This document shows, piece after piece, positions 3,990 through 14,976 of a DNA stretch of 15,503 bases; the first letter of the stretch is position 1, and each line of letters begins with the position of its first letter. A program made the position numbers and the translations under genes. The notes under the pieces are model-generated. The model saw only the letters and a program-made list of their open reading frames with translations. It was not told where the DNA came from and did no database searches. Source of the DNA: a virus (Duplodnaviria; Heunggongvirae; Uroviricota; Caudoviricetes); the IMG/VR virus record IMGVR_UViG_2579778894_000014, positions 1-15,503 of that record, one strand, 5' to 3'.

Positions 3990-6251
3990 TTACAATCCAG
4001 ATTGCAAAATTTCGCAAGATTTATATATTTCGCGCAATTCTTCGTTGCTGAAATCGTTATTTTTTACAAGAATCCAAATCCTATATACAAACCCGTCAAT
4101 TTTTACGCGTACGGGTTCCCGCTTTGTTCTTTCTTTCAAAATGCGAGTAATATGCTTCTGGTTAATTTCTACATCCATTCCTGCTTCTGCCAGTATTGCG
4201 TTAACAATTTGTTGATAAGTCATTGCTGGCACAGGCGGATTATCCAGGATTTCAATAAGAGCAGCCTCCACATCGCTCTTATTGCTTTCAATCATCAGAA
4301 GGCGTTCTTTCGTCTCGGGGGCGCGCTGCCAGTTAAAGCGAGACAGGTCAACGCCCATTAGATACCAGTACACCTGGGCGATAAAGTCGCTGTCGCTTAG
4401 CGCACCGTACAGGCTGGCGTAATGCTCTTCAGTTGCGGCGAAGTCAGGGCCCCCCAGCACAGCTATACGTCGGTCTTCCTCTGGCAGCGCCAGCGCATCA
4501 AAGTGGTTGGTGTAGAACAGAAAGCCGGTGTATATATCCATCGTTTTTTTGCTGCCATATTTGCGGTTCACTTCAAACCGTGGTTCTGTCAGCACGTCAC
4601 GGATCTTATCGTTCACCTCATACCGCTTATCGTTTTCGCGCACCTCGTCAATGGTGCATAGAAGTGTATTGTACAGATAGTCATGGAACTGGTTATCGCA
4701 CAGGATCTTCATGCGAGTACGAGCACAGTTCCACGGGCCAAGCACGCGCTCCATTAACTGACTGACCCATCCTCTGCCCGTACCATGTGCGGTAGCCACA
4801 TGCAGAATAGAAATCGGGCATCGACGCTCCGGACGCTGAACCATCCACCCCAGACGGGCGATGAAAAACTCGCGCTGCCAGGCATCAGGTACCAGATACG
4901 CCATATGATTAAGGAACGTGGACACCTTACTTGTATCCGCTGTACGTGGATGCTCAGGCATATAAAATTCGTTTATCTCAAACCGCCCGTCGAAACGCTC
5001 GATAATACGTCCCGCACCGGGCTTATAGCCTGTCGTCTCAGCAATCTTCTTATGCCGATGCTCTATCCACCGTTTGGTTGCGGGAGTTGGTTGTCCTTTC
5101 CCTTCTGGCGGGAACTGGTAAGGCGCCATCAGGTTTTTGAACGACTTCATATCCATCATGCACTGATATGGCGGTCGGCTAAGATCACATACCTGGTCAC
5201 CCTCGATGACGTAGATAAAGCGTTCCAGAAAATGAGCTGTCATATCTGTATTAATATCGGTAAATTCAGGCTTATCGCCATCTTCAGCCACCGTGAGATC
5301 TTCGAACAGGGATTGCGTATAGCCGTAGCCTTCCAGCCAGTCGGCATCAGTAAGCCCCGCATCGGTGTTGTGCATGCTTTTAAAATGTCCCTGTTCAAAT
5401 CCCCCCGTCCCTTTTGGGAAATACTTAATGGATGTTTCGCTGCAACCGTTGCTGTATTCTGACTCATCCCGAAACGGTTTCAGATTGCGGGAACCATCAG
5501 AGCTGACTGACAGAGTCCACCCGTTCGCGTCAAGCCAGTCGGCGACATCATCTGTCGCGGAAGGATCAACACAGGAAAGGTCACGCTGACGTCCTGCACC
5601 TGCGGTATAGCTGTCTTTCACGGGTAAGTTATCCGCCAGACGCTGCCACAGGCTTTCGAGCTGTTCAGATGTAATTTTCAGAGGTTCGCCGGGCAAACCG
5701 CTGTCCCACTGAATACGTTCGCCTGCCGGATGGGTACCACAAGCCACAAACTGCTGGCCCTTAGCGAGCAGCTCTATTTGTTTGTTTTCGCCTTCCAGGC
5801 GGTGACCACGTTTACGGTAGTCGCCATCAACAGCAATCAGGTACAGGCATTTATGACTGTCAGCCCGCCAGCGACGTGGCGGAAGTTCCCCCAGGCATGA
5901 TAGGATAATATTGCGTACGATCTCCTGCATCCCGGCGTCATTGATATCGCAGTCCAGAGCCACCACCCCGTCGCCAGTACGAACGCAAATACCGTAATCG
6001 GGTTCGTTCGACCACCGGGCAAAATCGTTTTCCGTAACAACATAGTTAGCCCAGTCGGGGATACCAACAACCTTACGTTGGCCATTGTAGCGACTGGGGG
6101 TTTTGCCGAAATTATGAGACAGCTTGCTATTAGGCGACAGTTCTGCACAGGGATTGGACACCACAGGTAAAAGCCTGTCTGTCATCCCCAACACCAGATC
6201 GAAGTAGAACCACTCATCGGGCGTAGCTCCCCATGGTTTGTTATCAGACAT
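3990..6251 (-). CDS. Replication protein, primase-like (primase-polymerase-type N-terminal region; P4 alpha-like size and context)
   Basis: 753-aa ORF whose start overlaps the stop of the Cro-like gene, suggesting translational coupling. The N-terminal region contains VVALDCDI (a DxD-type catalytic-like motif) and GTHPAG. hhhhDE-like TIDEV is present in the C-terminal half. I could not find a canonical Walker A GxxxxGK[ST], so helicase activity is not supported from sequence. Iteron array lies immediately downstream. Confidence 0.65.
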   Translation of the reverse strand: MSDNKPWGATPDEWFYFDLVLGMTDRLLPVVSNPCAELSPNSKLSHNFGKTPSRYNGQRKVVGIPDWANYVVTENDFARWSNEPDYGICVRTGDGVVALDCDINDAGMQEIVRNIILSCLGELPPRRWRADSHKCLYLIAVDGDYRKRGHRLEGENKQIELLAKGQQFVACGTHPAGERIQWDSGLPGEPLKITSEQLESLWQRLADNLPVKDSYTAGAGRQRDLSCVDPSATDDVADWLDANGWTLSVSSDGSRNLKPFRDESEYSNGCSETSIKYFPKGTGGFEQGHFKSMHNTDAGLTDADWLEGYGYTQSLFEDLTVAEDGDKPEFTDINTDMTAHFLERFIYVIEGDQVCDLSRPPYQCMMDMKSFKNLMAPYQFPPEGKGQPTPATKRWIEHRHKKIAETTGYKPGAGRIIERFDGRFEINEFYMPEHPRTADTSKVSTFLNHMAYLVPDAWQREFFIARLGWMVQRPERRCPISILHVATAHGTGRGWVSQLMERVLGPWNCARTRMKILCDNQFHDYLYNTLLCTIDEVRENDKRYEVNDKIRDVLTEPRFEVNRKYGSKKTMDIYTGFLFYTNHFDALALPEEDRRIAVLGGPDFAATEEHYASLYGALSDSDFIAQVYWYLMGVDLSRFNWQRAPETKERLLMIESNKSDVEAALIEILDNPPVPAMTYQQIVNAILAEAGMDVEINQKHITRILKERTKREPVRVKIDGFVYRIWILVKNNDFSNEELREIYKSCEILQSGL

Positions 6252-6254
6252 GGG

Positions 6255-6455
6255 TTACGCCTTTTGTCTAGCTGTCACTTCCTGAAAAAGCTTTTCTATC
6301 GCACGTACTGTAGAAAAGCGAGGGTCAGAATGAACCCCGGTGAGAAGCCGACTAATAGAAGACTGCTTCACGCCTGCAATTTCGGCAATTTGGTTTTGGG
6401 TATACCCTGAATCAATCAAGCTTTTGACCATCTCTTGTGGTGTTAGTCCGGACAT
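6255..6455 (-). CDS. Cro-like HTH (XRE-family) DNA-binding protein
   Basis: 66 aa with helix-turn-helix signature QNQIAEIAGVKQSSISRLL. GGAGA SD 7 nt upstream. Divergent from the CI-type repressor across a 141-bp region and first gene of the rightward replication operon. Confidence 0.75.
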   Translation of the reverse strand: MSGLTPQEMVKSLIDSGYTQNQIAEIAGVKQSSISRLLTGVHSDPRFSTVRAIEKLFQEVTARQKA

Positions 6456-6596
6456 ATTTAAGTCTCCACTTTCGTCTATAGCGCAAATTTATACGAAAAC
6501 GGATTATTCAGCAATACAGCAATTCTATATCATCCTGTATTAAAATATCCGATAACGCATAATCACCGTCCCTGTATACAACATGGATGAATCCAA
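6456..6596. promoter_or_regulatory. Divergent operator/promoter region of the immunity switch (OR-like)
   Basis: 141-bp AT-rich region between the divergent cro-like and cI genes. Contains ATAACGCATAAT at 6552-6563, a motif repeated twice at the promoter downstream of cI. Candidate -10 TATAAA (complement of 6488-6493) and -35 TTGCTG (complement of 6509-6514) for the cro-side promoter, but spacing is only 15 bp, so the exact promoter is uncertain. Confidence 0.55.
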
Positions 6597-7271
6597 ATGA
6601 TTGATACTACCGATATCCTTTCTCAAAACATCAAGTACCTGATGGACAAAACCAAGATAAGCTCGATAACTGAGCTGGCACGTCGGTTACAGCTGAACCA
6701 ACCAACGCTACACAGGCTGGTATCAGGAGAGGTGAAAGATCCGAAATACGCAACGTTAAAGCAGATCGCCGACTACTTCCACGTGTCACCAATAGACCTG
6801 GCAGAAAGGAGCCTTCAAGAAATGGAGAAAGAGGACGCGACAGGTATAAAAACGTATATTTCTCTTAGGTTTAATAAAGTACCTGTTTTGGGAAACACTC
6901 AGCTAGGCGTTGGAGGACTTTGGAGCGACACCCAATATTCAGTAGGTAGCAGTGATGGTTTCATATACTGGCCGACAAAGGATGAAGATGCATACGCCCT
7001 GAAATGTGTTGGTGATTCAATGATGCCTAGAATCAAAGAGGGTGAGTTCGTAATCGTCGAACCCAACCACGACTACACTCCTGGTGATGAAGTACTTGTG
7101 GTTACCCGGGACGGTGAGGTCATGGTTAAAACCTTCTTGTTCGAACGCGATGGCCTGTTCCATCTAATATCTGTAAATGAAGATCATCCACCAGTCAGAG
7201 TACCACGCGAAAACATTGAAAAAATCCATTACGTGGCGGGGATCGCCAAATCCGCGCTACGCATGTACTAA
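6597..7271 (+). CDS. cI: CI-type prophage repressor (N-terminal HTH plus C-terminal LexA-like S24 peptidase domain)
   Basis: 224 aa. N-terminal HTH (ISSITELARRLQLNQPTLHRL). C-terminal CVGDSMMPRIKEGEFVIV with the GDSM serine nucleophile and a downstream VMVKTF lysine, typical of LexA/CI autocleaving repressors. Confidence 0.85.
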   Translation: MIDTTDILSQNIKYLMDKTKISSITELARRLQLNQPTLHRLVSGEVKDPKYATLKQIADYFHVSPIDLAERSLQEMEKEDATGIKTYISLRFNKVPVLGNTQLGVGGLWSDTQYSVGSSDGFIYWPTKDEDAYALKCVGDSMMPRIKEGEFVIVEPNHDYTPGDEVLVVTRDGEVMVKTFLFERDGLFHLISVNEDHPPVRVPRENIEKIHYVAGIAKSALRMY

Positions 7272-7301
7272 CCTTTACAGTCTGATAACTTACCTCTGAT
7301 C

Positions 7302-7335
7302 AAACCGCTCTCCACAAGGGCGGTTTTCTTATTTG
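7302..7335 (+). terminator. Intrinsic terminator after cI
   Basis: AAACCGC (7302-7308), 11-nt loop, GCGGTTT (7320-7326), followed by TCTTATTT. Confidence 0.5.
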
Positions 7336-7355
7336 CAAAATAATTCATTTTCGTA

Positions 7356-7384
7356 TTGACACAAAATCCCATAACGCATATAAA
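7356..7384 (+). promoter_or_regulatory. Strong sigma70-type promoter, pL-like early-left promoter, overlapped by operator-like repeats
   Basis: TTGACA (7356-7361), 17-bp spacer, TATAAA (7379-7384). ATAACGCATA (7371-7380) overlaps the spacer and -10, and ATACCGCATAAT (7389-7400) sits just downstream. Confidence 0.5.
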
Positions 7385-7420
7385 TACGATACCGCATAAT
7401 TAATGCATTTTCTAATACCA

Positions 7421-7432
7421 GCTCTTTAACAA
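7421..7432 (+). promoter_or_regulatory. boxA-like antitermination element in the early-left leader
   Basis: GCTCTTTAACAA matches the rrn/lambdoid boxA core (UGCUCUUUAACAA) as I recall it, about 30 nt downstream of the predicted transcription start. Confidence 0.45.
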
Positions 7433-7577
7433 ACAGAACCGCGTGACAGGTAAGCCGCAGTGCTCCTGGCAAAACGAAATAGCACCCGATGGGATCGAGG
7501 TAAGCGCCGAGTCCGTATGCGTACGGTAAGCGTAGAGGACAACACCGCGACGAACTGATAAGTCACGCAAGTTGAAA

Positions 7578-7606
7578 CGCCCCGATGATGGGGCGCTTAG
7601 TTCCTT
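7578..7606 (+). terminator. Hairpin with weak U-tract (possible leader terminator or pause site)
   Basis: CGCCCC-GATGAT-GGGGCG (6-bp stem) followed by CTTAGTTCCTTT. Confidence 0.3.
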
Positions 7607-7698
7607 TAACTCTGGGTGACCGGAAGGGTACCCATGCTTAAAGAAATTACTGGTTGTAAGGATCGTAATCCGTGATTGCCTTCCCCGGATTTTCATCT

Positions 7699-8217
7699 TC
7701 AGAAGGCAGTCGGGCCTCTAAAGCATTTCGGGTTGAACAGATAGGAAGCCCTACAGTACGAACAAACCATATTAACGACTCGCCCAAGGCCTGGCTTAGT
7801 AACCAGACCTTCCGCTTGCAATATAGATTTTCTCTTTTGCTCGTAGCAATTGGGACAAATATAAACCGGAGATTGGTCAGCATCTGCAGAAAGCTTGCTG
7901 CGATAGACCAGAGTACCCCGCATAGGCTGGTAAAGTTCATAGCTCGCCGCTTCAGCGGCCCAGTTCTCTTGCTTTACTTTCTCATTTTCCAGTTCAACAA
8001 TTTTCTCCTTAGCCGCAATCAGCAGCTCCTGAAGCGACATTTGCTGCATCTGAACATCCATTAGCTTATCGAGTAAGATGTGCGTCTTCTCTTTAACTGC
8101 ATAGTCGACAGTCAGATTCTGAATCTCTCTTGCTGCTCCAACCGCGCTTTTAATTGCTCCTCCCACACCGGATAACGATTCAGTTATCCGGGAAAGAATT
8201 CCTTTTTCTTCAGACAT
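7699..8217 (-). CDS. Hypothetical coiled-coil protein with C-terminal zinc-ribbon (CPNC...CSYC); cI-adjacent accessory gene
   Basis: 172-aa ORF on the strand opposite to the early-left transcript. Central heptad-like region (LQELLIAAKEKIVELENEKVKQENW) and C-terminal CxxC...CxxC. GAGAGA SD-like sequence upstream. Its promoter region carries two direct repeats ACTGTAGGGGT at 8234-8244 and 8268-8278. Confidence 0.65.
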   Translation of the reverse strand: MSEEKGILSRITESLSGVGGAIKSAVGAAREIQNLTVDYAVKEKTHILLDKLMDVQMQQMSLQELLIAAKEKIVELENEKVKQENWAAEAASYELYQPMRGTLVYRSKLSADADQSPVYICPNCYEQKRKSILQAEGLVTKPGLGRVVNMVCSYCRASYLFNPKCFRGPTAF

Positions 8218-8356
8218 ATCTAATCTCTCTCAAACTGTAGGGGTGAAGAGATATTAGACGATTTCTCACTGTAGGGGTACAAGGAGAACCACCTCGCCTG
8301 ATGTGGTTAAAAGCAGGCACTCGATGATATCCATGTAATTGCTGTGTGTAGTCTTT

Positions 8357-8382
8357 GCCCGCCGCAAGTGACGGGCTTTTTT
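8357..8382 (+). terminator. Intrinsic terminator on the plus strand upstream of the early-left genes
   Basis: GCCCG (8357-8361), 10-nt loop, CGGGC (8372-8376), followed by TTTTTT (8377-8382). Confidence 0.45.
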
Positions 8383-8420
8383 ATGTCTGAAAGCGCACTC
8401 GCAACAGCGTGCTCCCCGAT

Positions 8421-8591
8421 ATGAAAAAAGGAATACAACCGATGAAACCTGAACACATCCATCGACTGACGGGGCGCGATGTTCTCCGTTATCGCCGTAA
8501 AAACTTCGATTTGATGACCGGTCTGGCCGTTGCCACTGCGCTCGGTCTGATCATCACTTTCATTCTCCTTGTAGCGAGGACCACAGTATGA
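8421..8591 (+). CDS. Small membrane protein (single C-terminal TM helix)
   Basis: ATG at 8421 (the track used GTG at 8409); an alternative in-frame ATG at 8442 is preceded by AAGGA. C-terminal hydrophobic segment LAVATALGLIITFILLVA. Stop overlaps the next ATG (ATGA), suggesting coupling. Confidence 0.5.
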   Translation: MKKGIQPMKPEHIHRLTGRDVLRYRRKNFDLMTGLAVATALGLIITFILLVARTTV

Positions 8592-9490
8592 GTTTAGAAA
8601 CCAGTCTAGAACTTAATAATCAACTTCTGGCACAACATAATGCGCTGCTTGAACGTCTTATCCGCACAATGGCATCAGGTATTGTTATGCATCCTGACAC
8701 GATTTCACGAGTGCAGGAATGTCGGGATACAGCAACTGAAACTGAAAATATGTCAGCGGCAATGACACTGGATGATCTGGAGTTCAGCGACGTTATCGCA
8801 CTGGCTGGTTTCTACCCGGTAGCCACCCCTATCACAGAAGATATGCTGCAACGTGCTGTTGCCTACCGTGATGCTGAAGGCGATAAACGAGTAGTTCAGA
8901 TTGATGCTCTCGACAGCGCATTGCAGGGCGTCAAACGAGCCAGGGCGCTGCTTAAACCTGCTCTCCTGGACCTGTCCCGTAACATCCTTAAGTTCTGGGA
9001 CGACCTGCCAACCATCGGCGAGCGACGTGCTTTTGCCGAGCAGCTACTTGATGCACCTGCAGATGGGCGTGATGAAGTTAAGCCGAAAAAGGCCAGTAAC
9101 AAAGATGGAGAACGCACGGGGCCGTTTTACGTCAAAAATGTATCCGGCACAGCAGCCAGTGAACTCCACACCTTACGCAAGTTGAACGAGATGCTTAAAA
9201 AAGGCCATATCGAGATCAACCGTGTTGAGTACCTTCAGCTGCAGGAAGAATTTGCACGCAGAGACGCAGCAAATTCCAGCCAGAATAATGACGCCAAAGA
9301 TGACCATACAATTGATTTCGCGGCACTACGCAAACAAGCTGAAGGGTTGATCCTCCAGTTAGCAAAAGGGGGCTACCGGGCAGAAGCTATTGCAATTCTG
9401 GAAAAACAGGGAGCCAGGAAACTTGGTGAAGTAACGGATGAAAATCTCGCTGAAGTAATCACCCTGGCTGAAAAAGCACTGGAGGGTTAA
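8588..9490 (+). CDS. Hypothetical protein
   Basis: 300-aa ORF, translationally coupled to the flanking genes. Acidic, helical-looking composition. No family recognised. Confidence 0.7.
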
Positions 9491-14214: not shown

Positions 14215-14976
14215 ATGCAGGAACTAACTGAAATGCCGATCACCTATCCATACCCGAGAGAAACTTTTCCTGACTTTTTGAGGGAGTGTGGGTTCACCAA
14301 TTTTTCCCACGAACAGCGTGAGACTTGTGACTGCTATCGTTTAACGAATGGCGTAATTGTTAACCTTTACACCACCCGGACCATTCAGTTTCAAGGTAAC
14401 CCTCAAGAACGTCCCAATGTTGAAACTGCAATAATGACCCATTTAGGAACGCCGCCCACGGCAACACCACTAGCCGTAGAACAGCCATCTGAGCTCCCCA
14501 AAAAGATATTCATTGTTCACGGCCATGACCATACTGCAAAGGAGCAACTTGAGCTAATCCTTCATAAACTTGGATTACCAGACCATTTCATTTTGCAGAA
14601 TACGGGAGGGACTGGACTCACCATTATTGAAGAGCTTGAACGTGAAATTGGGCAAGGACAAACTGCTACCCGTTTCGGGATTGTTCTTTTGACACCTGAT
14701 GATATGGGATACTCAAAGCGCGCCGGTGAAGCAGAAATCCAACCCCGCGCAAGACAGAACGTTGTACTCGAGATGGGTATGCTTCTTTCGTCCTTAGGGC
14801 GCAGCAATGTAGCAATCCTTCAGAAACAGCACCTAGAACAGCCTTCTGATGCTAACGGGATTTTGTATCTGAATTTCAACGACCATGTACGTGAAACAGT
14901 TCCTCGTCTAGTGCAACGGTTACAAAATTCTGGTTTCGAATTTACACAAGCTCAAATAGCTAACGCTTCCTCGTAA
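14215..14976 (+). CDS. Two-domain protein: unknown N-terminal domain plus C-terminal TIR-like Rossmannoid domain (CAP12/PycTIR-type family)
   Basis: 253-aa ORF with AAGGAA SD upstream; last gene of the operon before a strong terminator. The C-terminal ~150 aa contains KKIFIVHGHDH, GGTGLTIIEELE, FGIVLLTPDD and NVVLEMGMLLSSLG, which I recognise as the pattern of prokaryotic TIR-like nucleotide-binding domains (conserved Glu followed by Gly). The N-terminal ~95 aa has no recognised family. Domain assignment is from memory, not a search. Confidence 0.6.
   Translation: MQELTEMPITYPYPRETFPDFLRECGFTNFSHEQRETCDCYRLTNGVIVNLYTTRTIQFQGNPQERPNVETAIMTHLGTPPTATPLAVEQPSELPKKIFIVHGHDHTAKEQLELILHKLGLPDHFILQNTGGTGLTIIEELEREIGQGQTATRFGIVLLTPDDMGYSKRAGEAEIQPRARQNVVLEMGMLLSSLGRSNVAILQKQHLEQPSDANGILYLNFNDHVRETVPRLVQRLQNSGFEFTQAQIANASS

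What the first reader, a model, noticed from the sequence alone, without database searches (positions are those of the whole stretch)
6456..7400. Repeated ATAACGCATAAT motif at the promoters on both sides of cI: candidate repressor operators
The 12-mer ATAACGCATAAT occurs 34 bp upstream of the cI start (6552-6563) and twice overlapping the pL-like promoter (ATAACGCATA at 7371-7380; ATACCGCATAAT at 7389-7400, 18 bp apart). Sharing a motif between the two early promoter regions that flank the repressor gene is what OL/OR operators look like, but these copies are direct repeats rather than 2-fold symmetric sites. That would be unusual for a CI-type dimer and may indicate a different binding mode or a second regulator. 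Each copy also contains CATAAT, so some may simply be -10 elements.
Basis: seen in the sequence. Interest (0 to 1): 0.4.

Follow-up and report, generated by a model that had tools for sequence, protein, structure and literature searches.

The report
Phage repressor operators flanking cI
The repeated motif is real, but it is the right-hand part of ordinary 14-bp two-fold-symmetric repressor binding sites that cover the three promoters of a temperate E. coli phage's immunity switch, so this is a lambda/434-style switch and not an unusual direct-repeat binding mode.

Summary
The three motif copies are at the stated coordinates. Moving it 5 bp to the left gives a 14-bp hyphenated palindrome, ATnCG-N4-CGnAT.

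There are five copies:
- two between cro and cI: 6491-6504 over the cro promoter and 6547-6560 over the cI promoter;
- three around the early promoter after cI (TTGACA-17-TATAAA): 7343-7356, 7366-7379 and 7384-7397.

A matrix built only from relatives ranks these five as the top five sites in the 15.5-kb window. Sites, spacings and promoter hexamers are invariant in relatives whose CI is 73-92% identical, and in a Yersinia relative one site is a perfect palindrome.

Relatives with a different CI/Cro recognition helix carry a different palindrome (ATTCA-N4-TGAAT) at the same promoter positions. The neighbouring primase does not follow this pattern.

The protein has an HTH domain plus an S24 domain, and its model folds like lambda repressor.

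Verdict: these are candidate CI/Cro operators of a lambda/434-like switch. The operator reading is supported. The "direct repeat, unusual binding mode" reading is not. This is a new member of a known kind, of low to moderate interest. Binding was not tested experimentally.

Side finds: a boxA followed by a conserved structured leader RNA that is absent from Rfam, and an RprA-like element.

The parts
6255..6455 (-). cro-like gene (66 aa, HTH_3), divergent from cI
   Evidence: ORF list. Pfam HTH_3, E 1.2e-9. Translation. Its helix QSSISRLLTG..DPRF parallels the CI helix QPTLHRLVSG..DPKY and covaries with operator class.
6486..6514 (-). Predicted cro promoter (P_R-like): -35 TTGCTG at 6514-6509, 17-bp spacer, -10 TAAATT at 6491-6486
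   Evidence: Read from sequence. TTG of the -35 and TA.ATT of the -10 are invariant in 6 relatives. Inferred only; no transcription start data.
6491..6504 (.). Operator S4, ATACGAAAACGGAT, in the spacer and first base of the -10 of the cro promoter (O_R1-like)
   Evidence: Zero mismatches to ATnCG-N4-CGnAT. Matrix score 17.6, rank 2 in the window. Invariant block TATACGAAAACG.ATT in relatives. Always 56 bp from S1.
6535..6563 (+). Predicted cI promoter (P_RM-like): -35 CTGTAT at 6535-6540 (TTGGAT in relatives), 17-bp spacer, -10 CATAAT at 6558-6563
   Evidence: Sequence and alignment A2. Inferred. The -35 is weak in this window, and the promoter scan did not list it.
6547..6560 (.). Operator S1, ATCCGATAACGCAT, over the spacer and first 3 bases of the -10 of the cI promoter (O_R3-like).
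   Evidence: Top matrix score in the window, 18.9. Invariant in all 6 aligned relatives.
6597..7271 (+). cI repressor gene (224 aa): N-terminal HTH_26 domain and C-terminal S24 peptidase domain
   Evidence: Pfam HTH_26 E 8e-12 and Peptidase_S24 E 1.8e-18. PHROG 4, transcriptional repressor. AlphaFold model with pLDDT 78; best PDB fold match is lambda repressor 3BDN, E 4e-10. Ser141 (GDSM) and Lys178 (VKTF) are invariant in 21 homologues and align with the corresponding GDSM and VKTF motifs of a LexA C-terminal domain.
7302..7326 (+). Intrinsic terminator ending the cI transcript
   Evidence: Terminator scan: 10-pair stem followed by a T-run. The stem is conserved in relatives.
7343..7356 (.). 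Operator S5, ATTCATTTTCGTAT, abutting the -35 of the early promoter (O_L3-like). One consensus half-site and one deviant half-site.
   Evidence: Matrix score 14.1, rank 5. 23 bp from S2 in all relatives. In class II relatives the same position holds ATTCAnnnnTGAAT.
7356..7384 (+). Early promoter after cI (P_L-like): TTGACA at 7356-7361, 17-bp spacer, TATAAA at 7379-7384
   Evidence: Sequence. Both hexamers are invariant in 6 relatives. The scan tool skipped it because it requires T at -10 position 6. boxA lies downstream on the same strand.
7366..7379 (.). Operator S2, ATCCCATAACGCAT, in the spacer of the early promoter (O_L2-like).
   Evidence: Matrix score 15.5, rank 3. The right half ACGCAT is invariant and the left half varies.
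7384..7397 (.). Operator S3, ATACGATACCGCAT, over the end of the -10 and the expected transcription start (O_L1-like).
   Evidence: Zero mismatches. Matrix score 14.6. The homologous site is ATACGATATCGCAT in L014 and the perfect palindrome ATACGATATCGTAT in the Yersinia relative L059.
7403..7416 (.). Possible weak fourth site S6, ATGCATTTTCTAAT, 19 bp after S3
   Evidence: Matrix score only 8.2, but the position is conserved and the match is better in relatives (ATGCGATTTTGAAT, ATGCAATTTTGAAT). Uncertain.
7421..7432 (+). boxA-like element GCTCTTTAACAA, about 30 nt into the early transcript
   Evidence: Exact match, unique in the window. Conserved in relatives and in 26 aligned leaders. Its identity with the rrn/nut boxA consensus is from my own knowledge.

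Best explanation
The motif copies are parts of five 14-bp two-fold-symmetric operators. The consensus is ATnCG-N4-CGnAT and the idealised form is ATACGATATCGTAT. The sites are recognised by dimers of the phage's CI repressor (HTH plus S24), and very probably also by the paralogous Cro.

In a lysogen, CI would act at three places:
- S4 (6491-6504) blocks the cro/primase/Q-side promoter.
- S5, S2 and S3 (7343-7397) together cover the upstream edge of the -35, the spacer and the start site of the strong early promoter after cI. This shuts off the boxA-led replication operon.
- S1 (6547-6560) lies over the -10 of the cI promoter. It gives negative autoregulation by CI, or shut-off of cI by Cro during lytic growth.

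Induction would follow RecA-stimulated self-cleavage by the S24 domain.

Shown here: the sites, their symmetry, conservation, fixed spacing, overlap with conserved promoter hexamers, and covariation with the repressor class. Inferred: actual binding, which protein binds which site first, transcription starts, cooperativity and SOS cleavage.
For: 1. Symmetry. Both halves of the sites read AT.C(G) towards the centre. Site S3 scores 5/7, 6/7 and 7/7 symmetric pairs in the window, L014 and L059.

2. Specificity. A matrix built from relatives only picks exactly these five sites as the top five of 15.5 kb, with a gap from 14.1 to 8.3. Simulations give 0.12 hits per window. The whole phage record has only a few other comparable hits, all inside genes.

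3. Footprints. In relatives with 73-92% identical CI, the invariant blocks of both intergenic regions are the sites plus the -35 and -10 hexamers, while the flanks drift. Spacings of 56, 23 and 18 bp are identical in all of them.

4. Covariation. Loci whose CI helix is (I/V)(P/S)QPTMHRL carry ATTCA-N4-TGAAT at the same positions, abutting the -35 and after the -10. They have 3-4 plus 2-3 copies and none elsewhere in those loci, and they lack ATnCG sites. NQPTLHRL loci show the reverse. The Cro helix also switches, from QSS to QAS. The adjacent primase does not covary: class II loci L032 and L042 are 68-69% identical to the window's primase, class I locus L057 is 45%, and L058 gives no hit.

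5. Protein. HTH_26 plus Peptidase_S24; lambda-repressor-like fold; conserved Ser/Lys dyad; cro is divergent from cI.
Against: - There is no binding or transcription experiment. The promoters and start sites are read from sequence only.
- S2 and S5 each have one deviant half-site (ATCCC, ATTCA).
- The centres of S1 and S2 are asymmetric (ATAA).
- Only two sites lie between cro and cI, against three in lambda and 434 and 3-4 in class II relatives.
- The -35 of the cI promoter is poor in this window (CTGTAT).
- The covariation cannot separate CI from Cro, because cI, cro and the sites move together as one module.
- The loose dyad pattern is not enriched over the window as a whole.
Confidence: 0.85

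Rival explanations
1. The copies are true direct repeats. They would be read asymmetrically, by CI in a non-dyad mode or by a second regulator or replication protein in the manner of iterons.
For: Sites 6547, 7366 and 7384 lie in the same orientation, and their similarity extends to 18 nt. The central ATAA of S1 and S2 is asymmetric. A primase/helicase gene is adjacent.
Against: - The left halves mirror the right halves.
- The positions conserved across relatives are the dyad positions 1, 2, 4, 5, 10, 11, 13 and 14, whereas positions 3, 12 and the centre drift.
- Homologous sites are perfect palindromes in L059 and L031.
- Two further sites (6491, 7343) fit the dyad but not the 12-mer orientation. 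RC(7343-7356), ATACGAAAATGAAT, matches S4 (ATACGAAAACGGAT) at 12 of 14 positions, as part of the 24-nt inverted match I1.
- The primase type does not covary with the motif.
- The extended direct similarity is explained by S1 and S2 sitting in the same register of two same-strand promoters.
Confidence: 0.05
2. The shared words are only promoter elements (CATAAT/TATAAA -10 boxes in AT-rich DNA) or chance. No repressor site is involved.
For: CATAAT at 6558-6563 is very likely the -10 of the cI promoter. The site ends overlap -10 hexamers. The 12-mer enrichment alone is modest, with 3 of 200 shuffles as high.
Against: - The conserved CG-containing halves (ATACG, CGCAT) are not promoter consensus.
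- CATAAT at 7395-7400 is not conserved in relatives (CATTAT, GTATAG) although the dyad is.
- The motif changes to ATTCA/TGAAT together with the repressor helix, while TTGACA and TATAAA stay the same.
- Matrix hits are far above simulation.
Confidence: 0.04
3. The sites are operators, but mainly for Cro. This applies especially to S1 over the cI promoter. CI would then use only a subset or a longer site.
For: Cro has a homologous recognition helix, and it covaries with operator class just as CI does. S1 is the best-scoring site and would shut off cI, which is a Cro-like task.
Against: Nothing here separates the two proteins. In lambda and 434 both proteins share the same operators (my own knowledge), so this refines the main explanation more than it competes with it.
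Confidence: 0.3

Closest known systems
Phage lambda immunity region (CI, Cro, O_L1-3, O_R1-3)
   Same: - Divergent cI and cro genes.
- CI has an HTH domain and a LexA-like S24 domain, and the model's best fold match is lambda repressor 3BDN.
- Dyad operators overlap the early promoters on both sides of cI.
- Three sites lie at the post-cI promoter.
- One site lies over the cI promoter, like O_R3.
- A boxA follows the early promoter.
   Different: - The sites are 14 bp, not 17 bp, and the sequence is unrelated.
- Only two sites lie between cro and cI, 56 bp apart. No site is positioned like O_R2 next to the -35 of the cI promoter, so lambda-style activation of P_RM is not evident.
- The two promoters are back to back and do not overlap.
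- Sequence identity to lambda CI is too low for phmmer; only LexA C-terminal domains are found.
- No N gene follows the early promoter.

The lambda facts are from my own knowledge.
Phage 434 repressor/Cro and their 14-bp operators (ACAA-N6-TTGT)
   Same: - 14-bp operators with conserved outer bases and a variable centre.
- Repressor and Cro have similar recognition helices and share the sites. Here CI has Q-P-T-L-H-R-L and Cro has Q-S-S-I-S-R-L.
   Different: - The half-site is different: ATnCG, with 5 outer bases and a 4-bp centre.
- No detectable sequence relation to 434 repressor in the PDB search.
- The number and spacing of sites differ.

The 434 facts are from my own knowledge.
cI (P1) of Hamiltonella phages APSE-1/2 and the repressor of Yersinia phages YeP4-6
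   Same: These are true homologues: 50% and 61% identical over the full length. YeP5 has the same layout of primase, cro, cI, TTGAC promoter and boxA, with ATGC(A/G)-N4-(C/T)GCAT sites at the same positions.
   Different: The recognition helix is different (MQQSTMHRLLTG) and the half-site is shifted. I found no paper that describes operators for any of these phages.
CI of Shiga-toxin phage H-19B and related lambdoid phages
   Same: This is the nearest CI from a studied lambdoid phage: 34% identity over the full length.
   Different: Its cro-cI region carries TTTATCA/TGATAAA-type words, not ATnCG dyads.

Membership tests
Lambdoid-type CI/Cro immunity switch (LexA-like phage repressor with dyad operators) | The repressor has an N-terminal HTH DNA-binding domain and a C-terminal S24 (LexA/UmuD-like) domain | tested here: met
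   Pfam HTH_26 E 8e-12 and Peptidase_S24 E 1.8e-18. The fold search puts lambda repressor 3BDN first, E 4e-10.
Lambdoid-type CI/Cro immunity switch (LexA-like phage repressor with dyad operators) | Catalytic Ser/Lys dyad for RecA-stimulated self-cleavage | tested here: met
   Ser141 in GDSM and Lys178 in VKTF are invariant in 21 homologues. They align with the corresponding GDSM and VKTF motifs of a LexA C-terminal domain. The cleavage-site region reads Q-L-G where lambda has Q-A-G (the lambda fact is from my own knowledge). Cleavage itself was not tested.
Lambdoid-type CI/Cro immunity switch (LexA-like phage repressor with dyad operators) | A small divergently transcribed Cro-type HTH gene next to cI | tested here: met
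   66-aa HTH_3 protein at 6255-6455 on the minus strand, 141 bp from cI. The arrangement is conserved in relatives.
Lambdoid-type CI/Cro immunity switch (LexA-like phage repressor with dyad operators) | Several two-fold-symmetric operators that overlap the early promoters on both sides of cI | tested here: met
   Five ATnCG-N4-CGnAT sites lie over three predicted promoters. Perfect palindromes occur at homologous sites in relatives. This rests on sequence evidence only.
Lambdoid-type CI/Cro immunity switch (LexA-like phage repressor with dyad operators) | Operator sequence specific to the immunity type (heteroimmune relatives have different operators) | tested here: met
   The operator class follows the CI and Cro recognition helices and not the primase.
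Lambdoid-type CI/Cro immunity switch (LexA-like phage repressor with dyad operators) | Physical binding of CI and Cro to the operators, with repression of the promoters | not testable with these tools
   This needs EMSA or footprinting and reporter assays.
Lambdoid-type CI/Cro immunity switch (LexA-like phage repressor with dyad operators) | Tripartite O_R with cooperative binding and positive autoregulation of the cI promoter (lambda-specific features) | tested here: not met
   Only two sites lie between cro and cI, 56 bp apart. The matrix finds no third site there, and no site abuts the -35 of the cI promoter. The switch therefore works like the general kind but is not a lambda-type O_R in detail.

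The most novel reading that the evidence does not exclude
The two-operator region between cro and cI works differently from lambda's three-site O_R. It has strong sites 56 bp apart, one over each of two back-to-back promoters, with no O_R2-like site. One possibility is CI at 6491-6504, centred about 72 bp upstream of the expected cI start, activating the weak cI promoter from a distance. Another is loop formation with the three post-cI sites 0.9 kb away. In either case the conserved same-orientation asymmetry of the sites (strong CGCAT half towards the -10) would set the order of occupancy.
Probability: 0.12. Interest if true: 0.4.

Novelty: new member of a known kind. Interest (0 to 1): 0.22.

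Why it matters
The work gives a concrete, testable operator map and consensus for the immunity switch of a temperate phage group. The group comprises E. coli vB_EcoM-606R2-like prophages and relatives of Yersinia YeP and Hamiltonella APSE phages. I found no published description of their operators.

The natural series of operator classes could serve as a small system for studying HTH-DNA specificity and heteroimmunity. The classes are ATnCG, ATGCA and ATTCA half-sites, at fixed promoter positions, paired with slightly different recognition helices.

The result does not reveal a new mode of DNA recognition.

Tried and rejected
- **Loose pattern.** ATNCGNNNNCGNAT with one mismatch is not enriched over the whole window (10 matches against 7.0 expected). 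I relied instead on the matrix and the clustering.
- **Rfam.** At gathering thresholds there is nothing in the window.
- **Single-sequence fold.** Folding 7388-7625 gave no signal (z = 0.45). RNAalifold on the mixed 26-sequence alignment gave an uninformative consensus. The structure emerged only after trimming the region and leaving out the fourth (YeP5-like) leader type.
- **PDB by sequence.** The CI search found only LexA C-terminal domains.
- **Genome scan.** The genome-contig scan missed the closest relatives, so I fetched them by exact protein look-up.
- **Literature.** Searches on phage names, APSE operators and the literal motif strings found no description of these sites. The Nus-dependent mEpimmI phages (PMC11893012) were considered. 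I judged them a different group, because megablast of this region against the phage collection returned no mEp record and their gene order differs. I did not compare the repressor sequences.
- **H-19B.** Its record carries no operator annotation, and its sites look unrelated.
- **Primase as binder.** The idea that the repeats are iterons for the primase was rejected because the primase type does not covary with them.
- **A third O_R site.** I looked for a third site between 6504 and 6547 and found none.

Full report
**Context**

The window is the early region of a temperate E. coli phage. It is 99.8% identical to a prophage of O55:H7 strain DEC5E and 98.9% identical to phage vB_EcoM-606R2. The region is present in 96 of 5,426 complete E. 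coli genomes.

Gene order:
- primase/helicase (Prim-Pol plus DUF5906), 3990-6251, minus strand;
- a 66-aa Cro-like HTH protein, 6255-6455, minus strand;
- a 224-aa CI (HTH_26 plus Peptidase_S24), 6597-7271, plus strand;
- a terminator, 7302-7326;
- an AT-rich promoter region;
- a non-coding leader of about 200 nt;
- a 172-aa gene on the minus strand, 7699-8217;
- the replication operon, starting at 8442 (DUF2800, DUF2815, DNA polymerase).

**Observation**

The 12-mer alone is modestly enriched: 5 matches with up to 2 mismatches against 1.44 expected, and 3 of 200 shuffles reach 5.

The repeat finder shows more. The repeated unit is 18 nt (6544-6561, 7363-7380, 7381-7398). In addition, 6491-6514 matches 7333-7356 in inverted orientation over 24 nt.

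**Re-registration**

Starting each copy 5 bp earlier gives 14-mers that are hyphenated palindromes, AT-n-CG-nnnn-CG-n-AT:

| Site | Coordinates | Sequence |
|---|---|---|
| S4 | 6491-6504 | ATACGAAAACGGAT |
| S1 | 6547-6560 | ATCCGATAACGCAT |
| S5 | 7343-7356 | ATTCATTTTCGTAT |
| S2 | 7366-7379 | ATCCCATAACGCAT |
| S3 | 7384-7397 | ATACGATACCGCAT |

The inverted 24-nt match contributes S4 and S5. A weak sixth candidate lies at 7403-7416.

I built a matrix from 15 homologous sites of three relatives only, symmetrised it, and scanned the window. Its top five scores are exactly these five sites (14.1-18.9, next 8.3). In 500 first-order Markov simulations the mean was 0.12 hits at that level. In the whole 42.7-kb phage record the five rank 1, 2, 4, 5 and 6, and the other comparable hits lie inside genes.

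**Relation to promoters (inferred from sequence)**

Three promoter-like pairs with 17-bp spacers are conserved:
- Early promoter after cI: TTGACA 7356-7361 and TATAAA 7379-7384, plus strand. S5 abuts its -35, S2 fills its spacer and S3 covers the expected start.
- cro promoter: TTGCTG 6514-6509 and TAAATT 6491-6486, minus strand. S4 fills its spacer and touches its -10.
- cI promoter: CTGTAT 6535-6540 (TTGGAT in relatives) and CATAAT 6558-6563, plus strand. S1 covers its spacer and the first three bases of its -10.

S1 and S2 occupy the same register of two same-strand promoters.

**Comparative evidence**

CI homologues are numerous. Five loci with 73-92% identical CI and the same recognition helix (NQPTLHRL) were fetched. 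They come from Limnobaculum, Yersinia rochesterensis, two metagenomic assemblies and one IMG/VR contig. All have the same gene order.

In alignments of both intergenic regions, the invariant blocks are the sites plus the promoter hexamers, while the flanks drift. The spacings are identical everywhere: S4 to S1 56 bp, S5 to S2 23 bp, S2 to S3 18 bp.

The conserved positions are the dyad positions. S3 becomes ATACGATATCGCAT in L014 and the perfect palindrome ATACGATATCGTAT in Yersinia.

**Covariation**

More distant loci keep the architecture but change the word:
- Where the CI helix is (I/V)(P/S)QPTMHRL, the sites at the same positions are ATTCA-N4-TGAAT, and several are perfect palindromes. 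There are 3-4 copies between cro and cI, 2-3 after cI, and none elsewhere in those loci. They have no ATnCG sites in those positions.
- Erwinia-type helices go with ATGCA-N4-TGCAT.
- YeP5 goes with ATGC(A/G)-type sites.

The Cro helix switches in step, from QSS to QAS. The adjacent primase does not. Class II loci L032 and L042 have a primase 68-69% identical to the window's. The class I locus L057 is 45% identical and L058 has an unrelated protein. The motif therefore follows the CI/Cro pair and not the replication protein.

**The protein**

The CI model (pLDDT 78) matches lambda repressor best (3BDN, E 4e-10). Sequence search of the PDB finds only LexA C-terminal domains. Ser141 and Lys178 of the S24 domain are invariant in 21 homologues.

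The nearest named phages are Yersinia YeP4-6 (61%), APSE-1/2 P1 "cI" (50%) and H-19B CI (34%). I found no paper that describes operators for this group.

**Mechanism proposed**

CI dimers, and probably Cro dimers, bind the 14-bp dyads.
- In a lysogen, S4 represses the cro/primase/Q arm and S5, S2 and S3 repress the early replication arm.
- S1 gives negative autoregulation by CI, or shut-off of cI by Cro.
- S1, S3 and S4 have two consensus halves and are probably strong sites. S2 and S5 have one deviant half and may depend on cooperativity.
- Induction would be by RecA-stimulated self-cleavage.

All binding steps are inferred. My confidence that these are CI/Cro operators is about 0.85.

**Differences from lambda**

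The sites are 14 bp, as in 434, rather than 17 bp. Only two sites lie between cro and cI, and none is placed to activate the cI promoter as O_R2 does. The two promoters there are back to back. The lambda and 434 facts are from my own knowledge.

**Verdict**

The operator reading is supported. The reading of non-symmetric direct repeats with an unusual binding mode is not supported, because it came from reading the site 5 bp out of register. This is a new, uncharacterised member of a well-known kind of switch.

**Side observations**

1. A boxA identical to the rrn-type consensus lies at 7421-7432. It is followed by a multi-helix RNA of about 130 nt at 7439-7569.
   - The RNA's invariant 18-mer occurs in 42 IMG/VR contigs, downstream of at least six unrelated promoter/operator modules.
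   - The proposed structure has 98% of cells paired, against 23-44% when the partners are slid. Four pairs show compensatory changes, and one hairpin exists in three compensating versions.
   - There is no Rfam match.
2. An RprA-like element at 8273-8386 scores 47.5 bits, below Rfam's 70-bit threshold. Its 3' half is nearly identical to the RprA consensus and ends in the terminator just upstream of the early operon.
3. Window 7607-8338 is a variable insertion slot compared with relatives.

Noticed in passing
window 7421-7600 (boxA 7421-7432; structured part 7439-7569; hairpin 7577-7597): The early transcript starts with an rrn-type boxA (GCTCTTTAACAA), followed by a conserved multi-helix RNA of about 130 nt. 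That RNA has an invariant A-rich loop, GGC-AAAACGAAAUA-GC.

- The exact 18-mer CTGGCAAAACGAAATAGC is in 42 IMG/VR contigs, downstream of at least six unrelated promoter/operator modules.
- The region matches 92 of 5,426 E. coli genomes and is unannotated there.
- 98% of cells pair, against 23-44% when the partners are slid. Four pairs show compensatory changes, and the P6 hairpin exists as CGAU/AUCG, GGUA/UACC and GCGA/UCGC.
- There is no Rfam match and no literature hit.

It may be a nut-like or processive-antitermination leader. No N-like gene follows it.
   Followed up: partly
window 8273-8386 (+); also L014 3771-3874 and L002 11073-11186: An RprA-like element (Rfam RF00034) scores 47.5-56.4 bits, below the 70-bit threshold, with E 1e-4. 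It matches the full model length. The 3' half (AUUGCUGUGUGUAGUCUUUGCCCG...CGGGCUUUUUU) is nearly identical to the RprA consensus and forms the terminator just upstream of the early operon. The 5' half matches only weakly.
   Followed up: partly
window 7607-8338: This is a variable insertion slot. The 172-aa minus-strand gene (7699-8217, PHROG 1244, unknown function) and its upstream region are replaced by other DNA in L014 and are absent from relatives L057-L061. The flanks 7302-7607 and 8338-8679 are conserved.
   Followed up: partly
window 8234-8244 and 8268-8278: An exact 11-nt direct repeat, ACTGTAGGGGT, with 34-bp spacing lies in the region upstream of the 172-aa minus-strand gene. It may be a regulator site for that gene.
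   Followed up: no
window 7449, 7499 and 7525; L085 6427-6621: Three GGTAAGC words occur in the leader. Contig L085 lacks the 26 nt between the last two (GGTAAGCG...GGTAAGCG), so that variable hairpin appears dispensable.
   Followed up: partly
loci L030-L035, L038, L042 (class II); L016-L022, L026 (Erwinia/Pantoea): Class II relatives carry 3-4 ATTCA-N4-TGAAT sites between cro and cI, a lambda-like three-site O_R, against two sites here. In Erwinia and Pantoea the CI homologue has ATGCA-N4-TGCAT sites upstream, but it is followed by a ferredoxin-like host gene rather than a phage early operon. This suggests a prophage remnant or a domesticated repressor.
   Followed up: no
window 8442-8591 (+): The first gene of the early operon encodes a conserved 49-aa protein (PHROG 11981). 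It has an arginine-rich N-terminus (HRLTGRDVLRYRRKNF) and a hydrophobic C-terminus. A counterpart with the motif R-LTG-D is present in YeP5 and Yersinia relatives. Its function is unknown.
   Followed up: no
window 14215-14976 (+): A 253-aa protein is annotated as TIR-like in the phage record ON470579. It matches PHROG 16442, of unknown function. It could be a defence or counter-defence gene within the replication operon.
   Followed up: no
window 7333-7356 versus 6491-6514 (reverse complement): The DNA upstream of the post-cI promoter (TTGCAAAATAATTCATTTTCGTAT) is 83% identical to the cro promoter's -35, spacer and operator (TTGCTGAATAATCCGTTTTCGTAT). Here it is followed by TTGACA and not by a -10. 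It looks like an old duplication of a promoter-operator unit.
   Followed up: no
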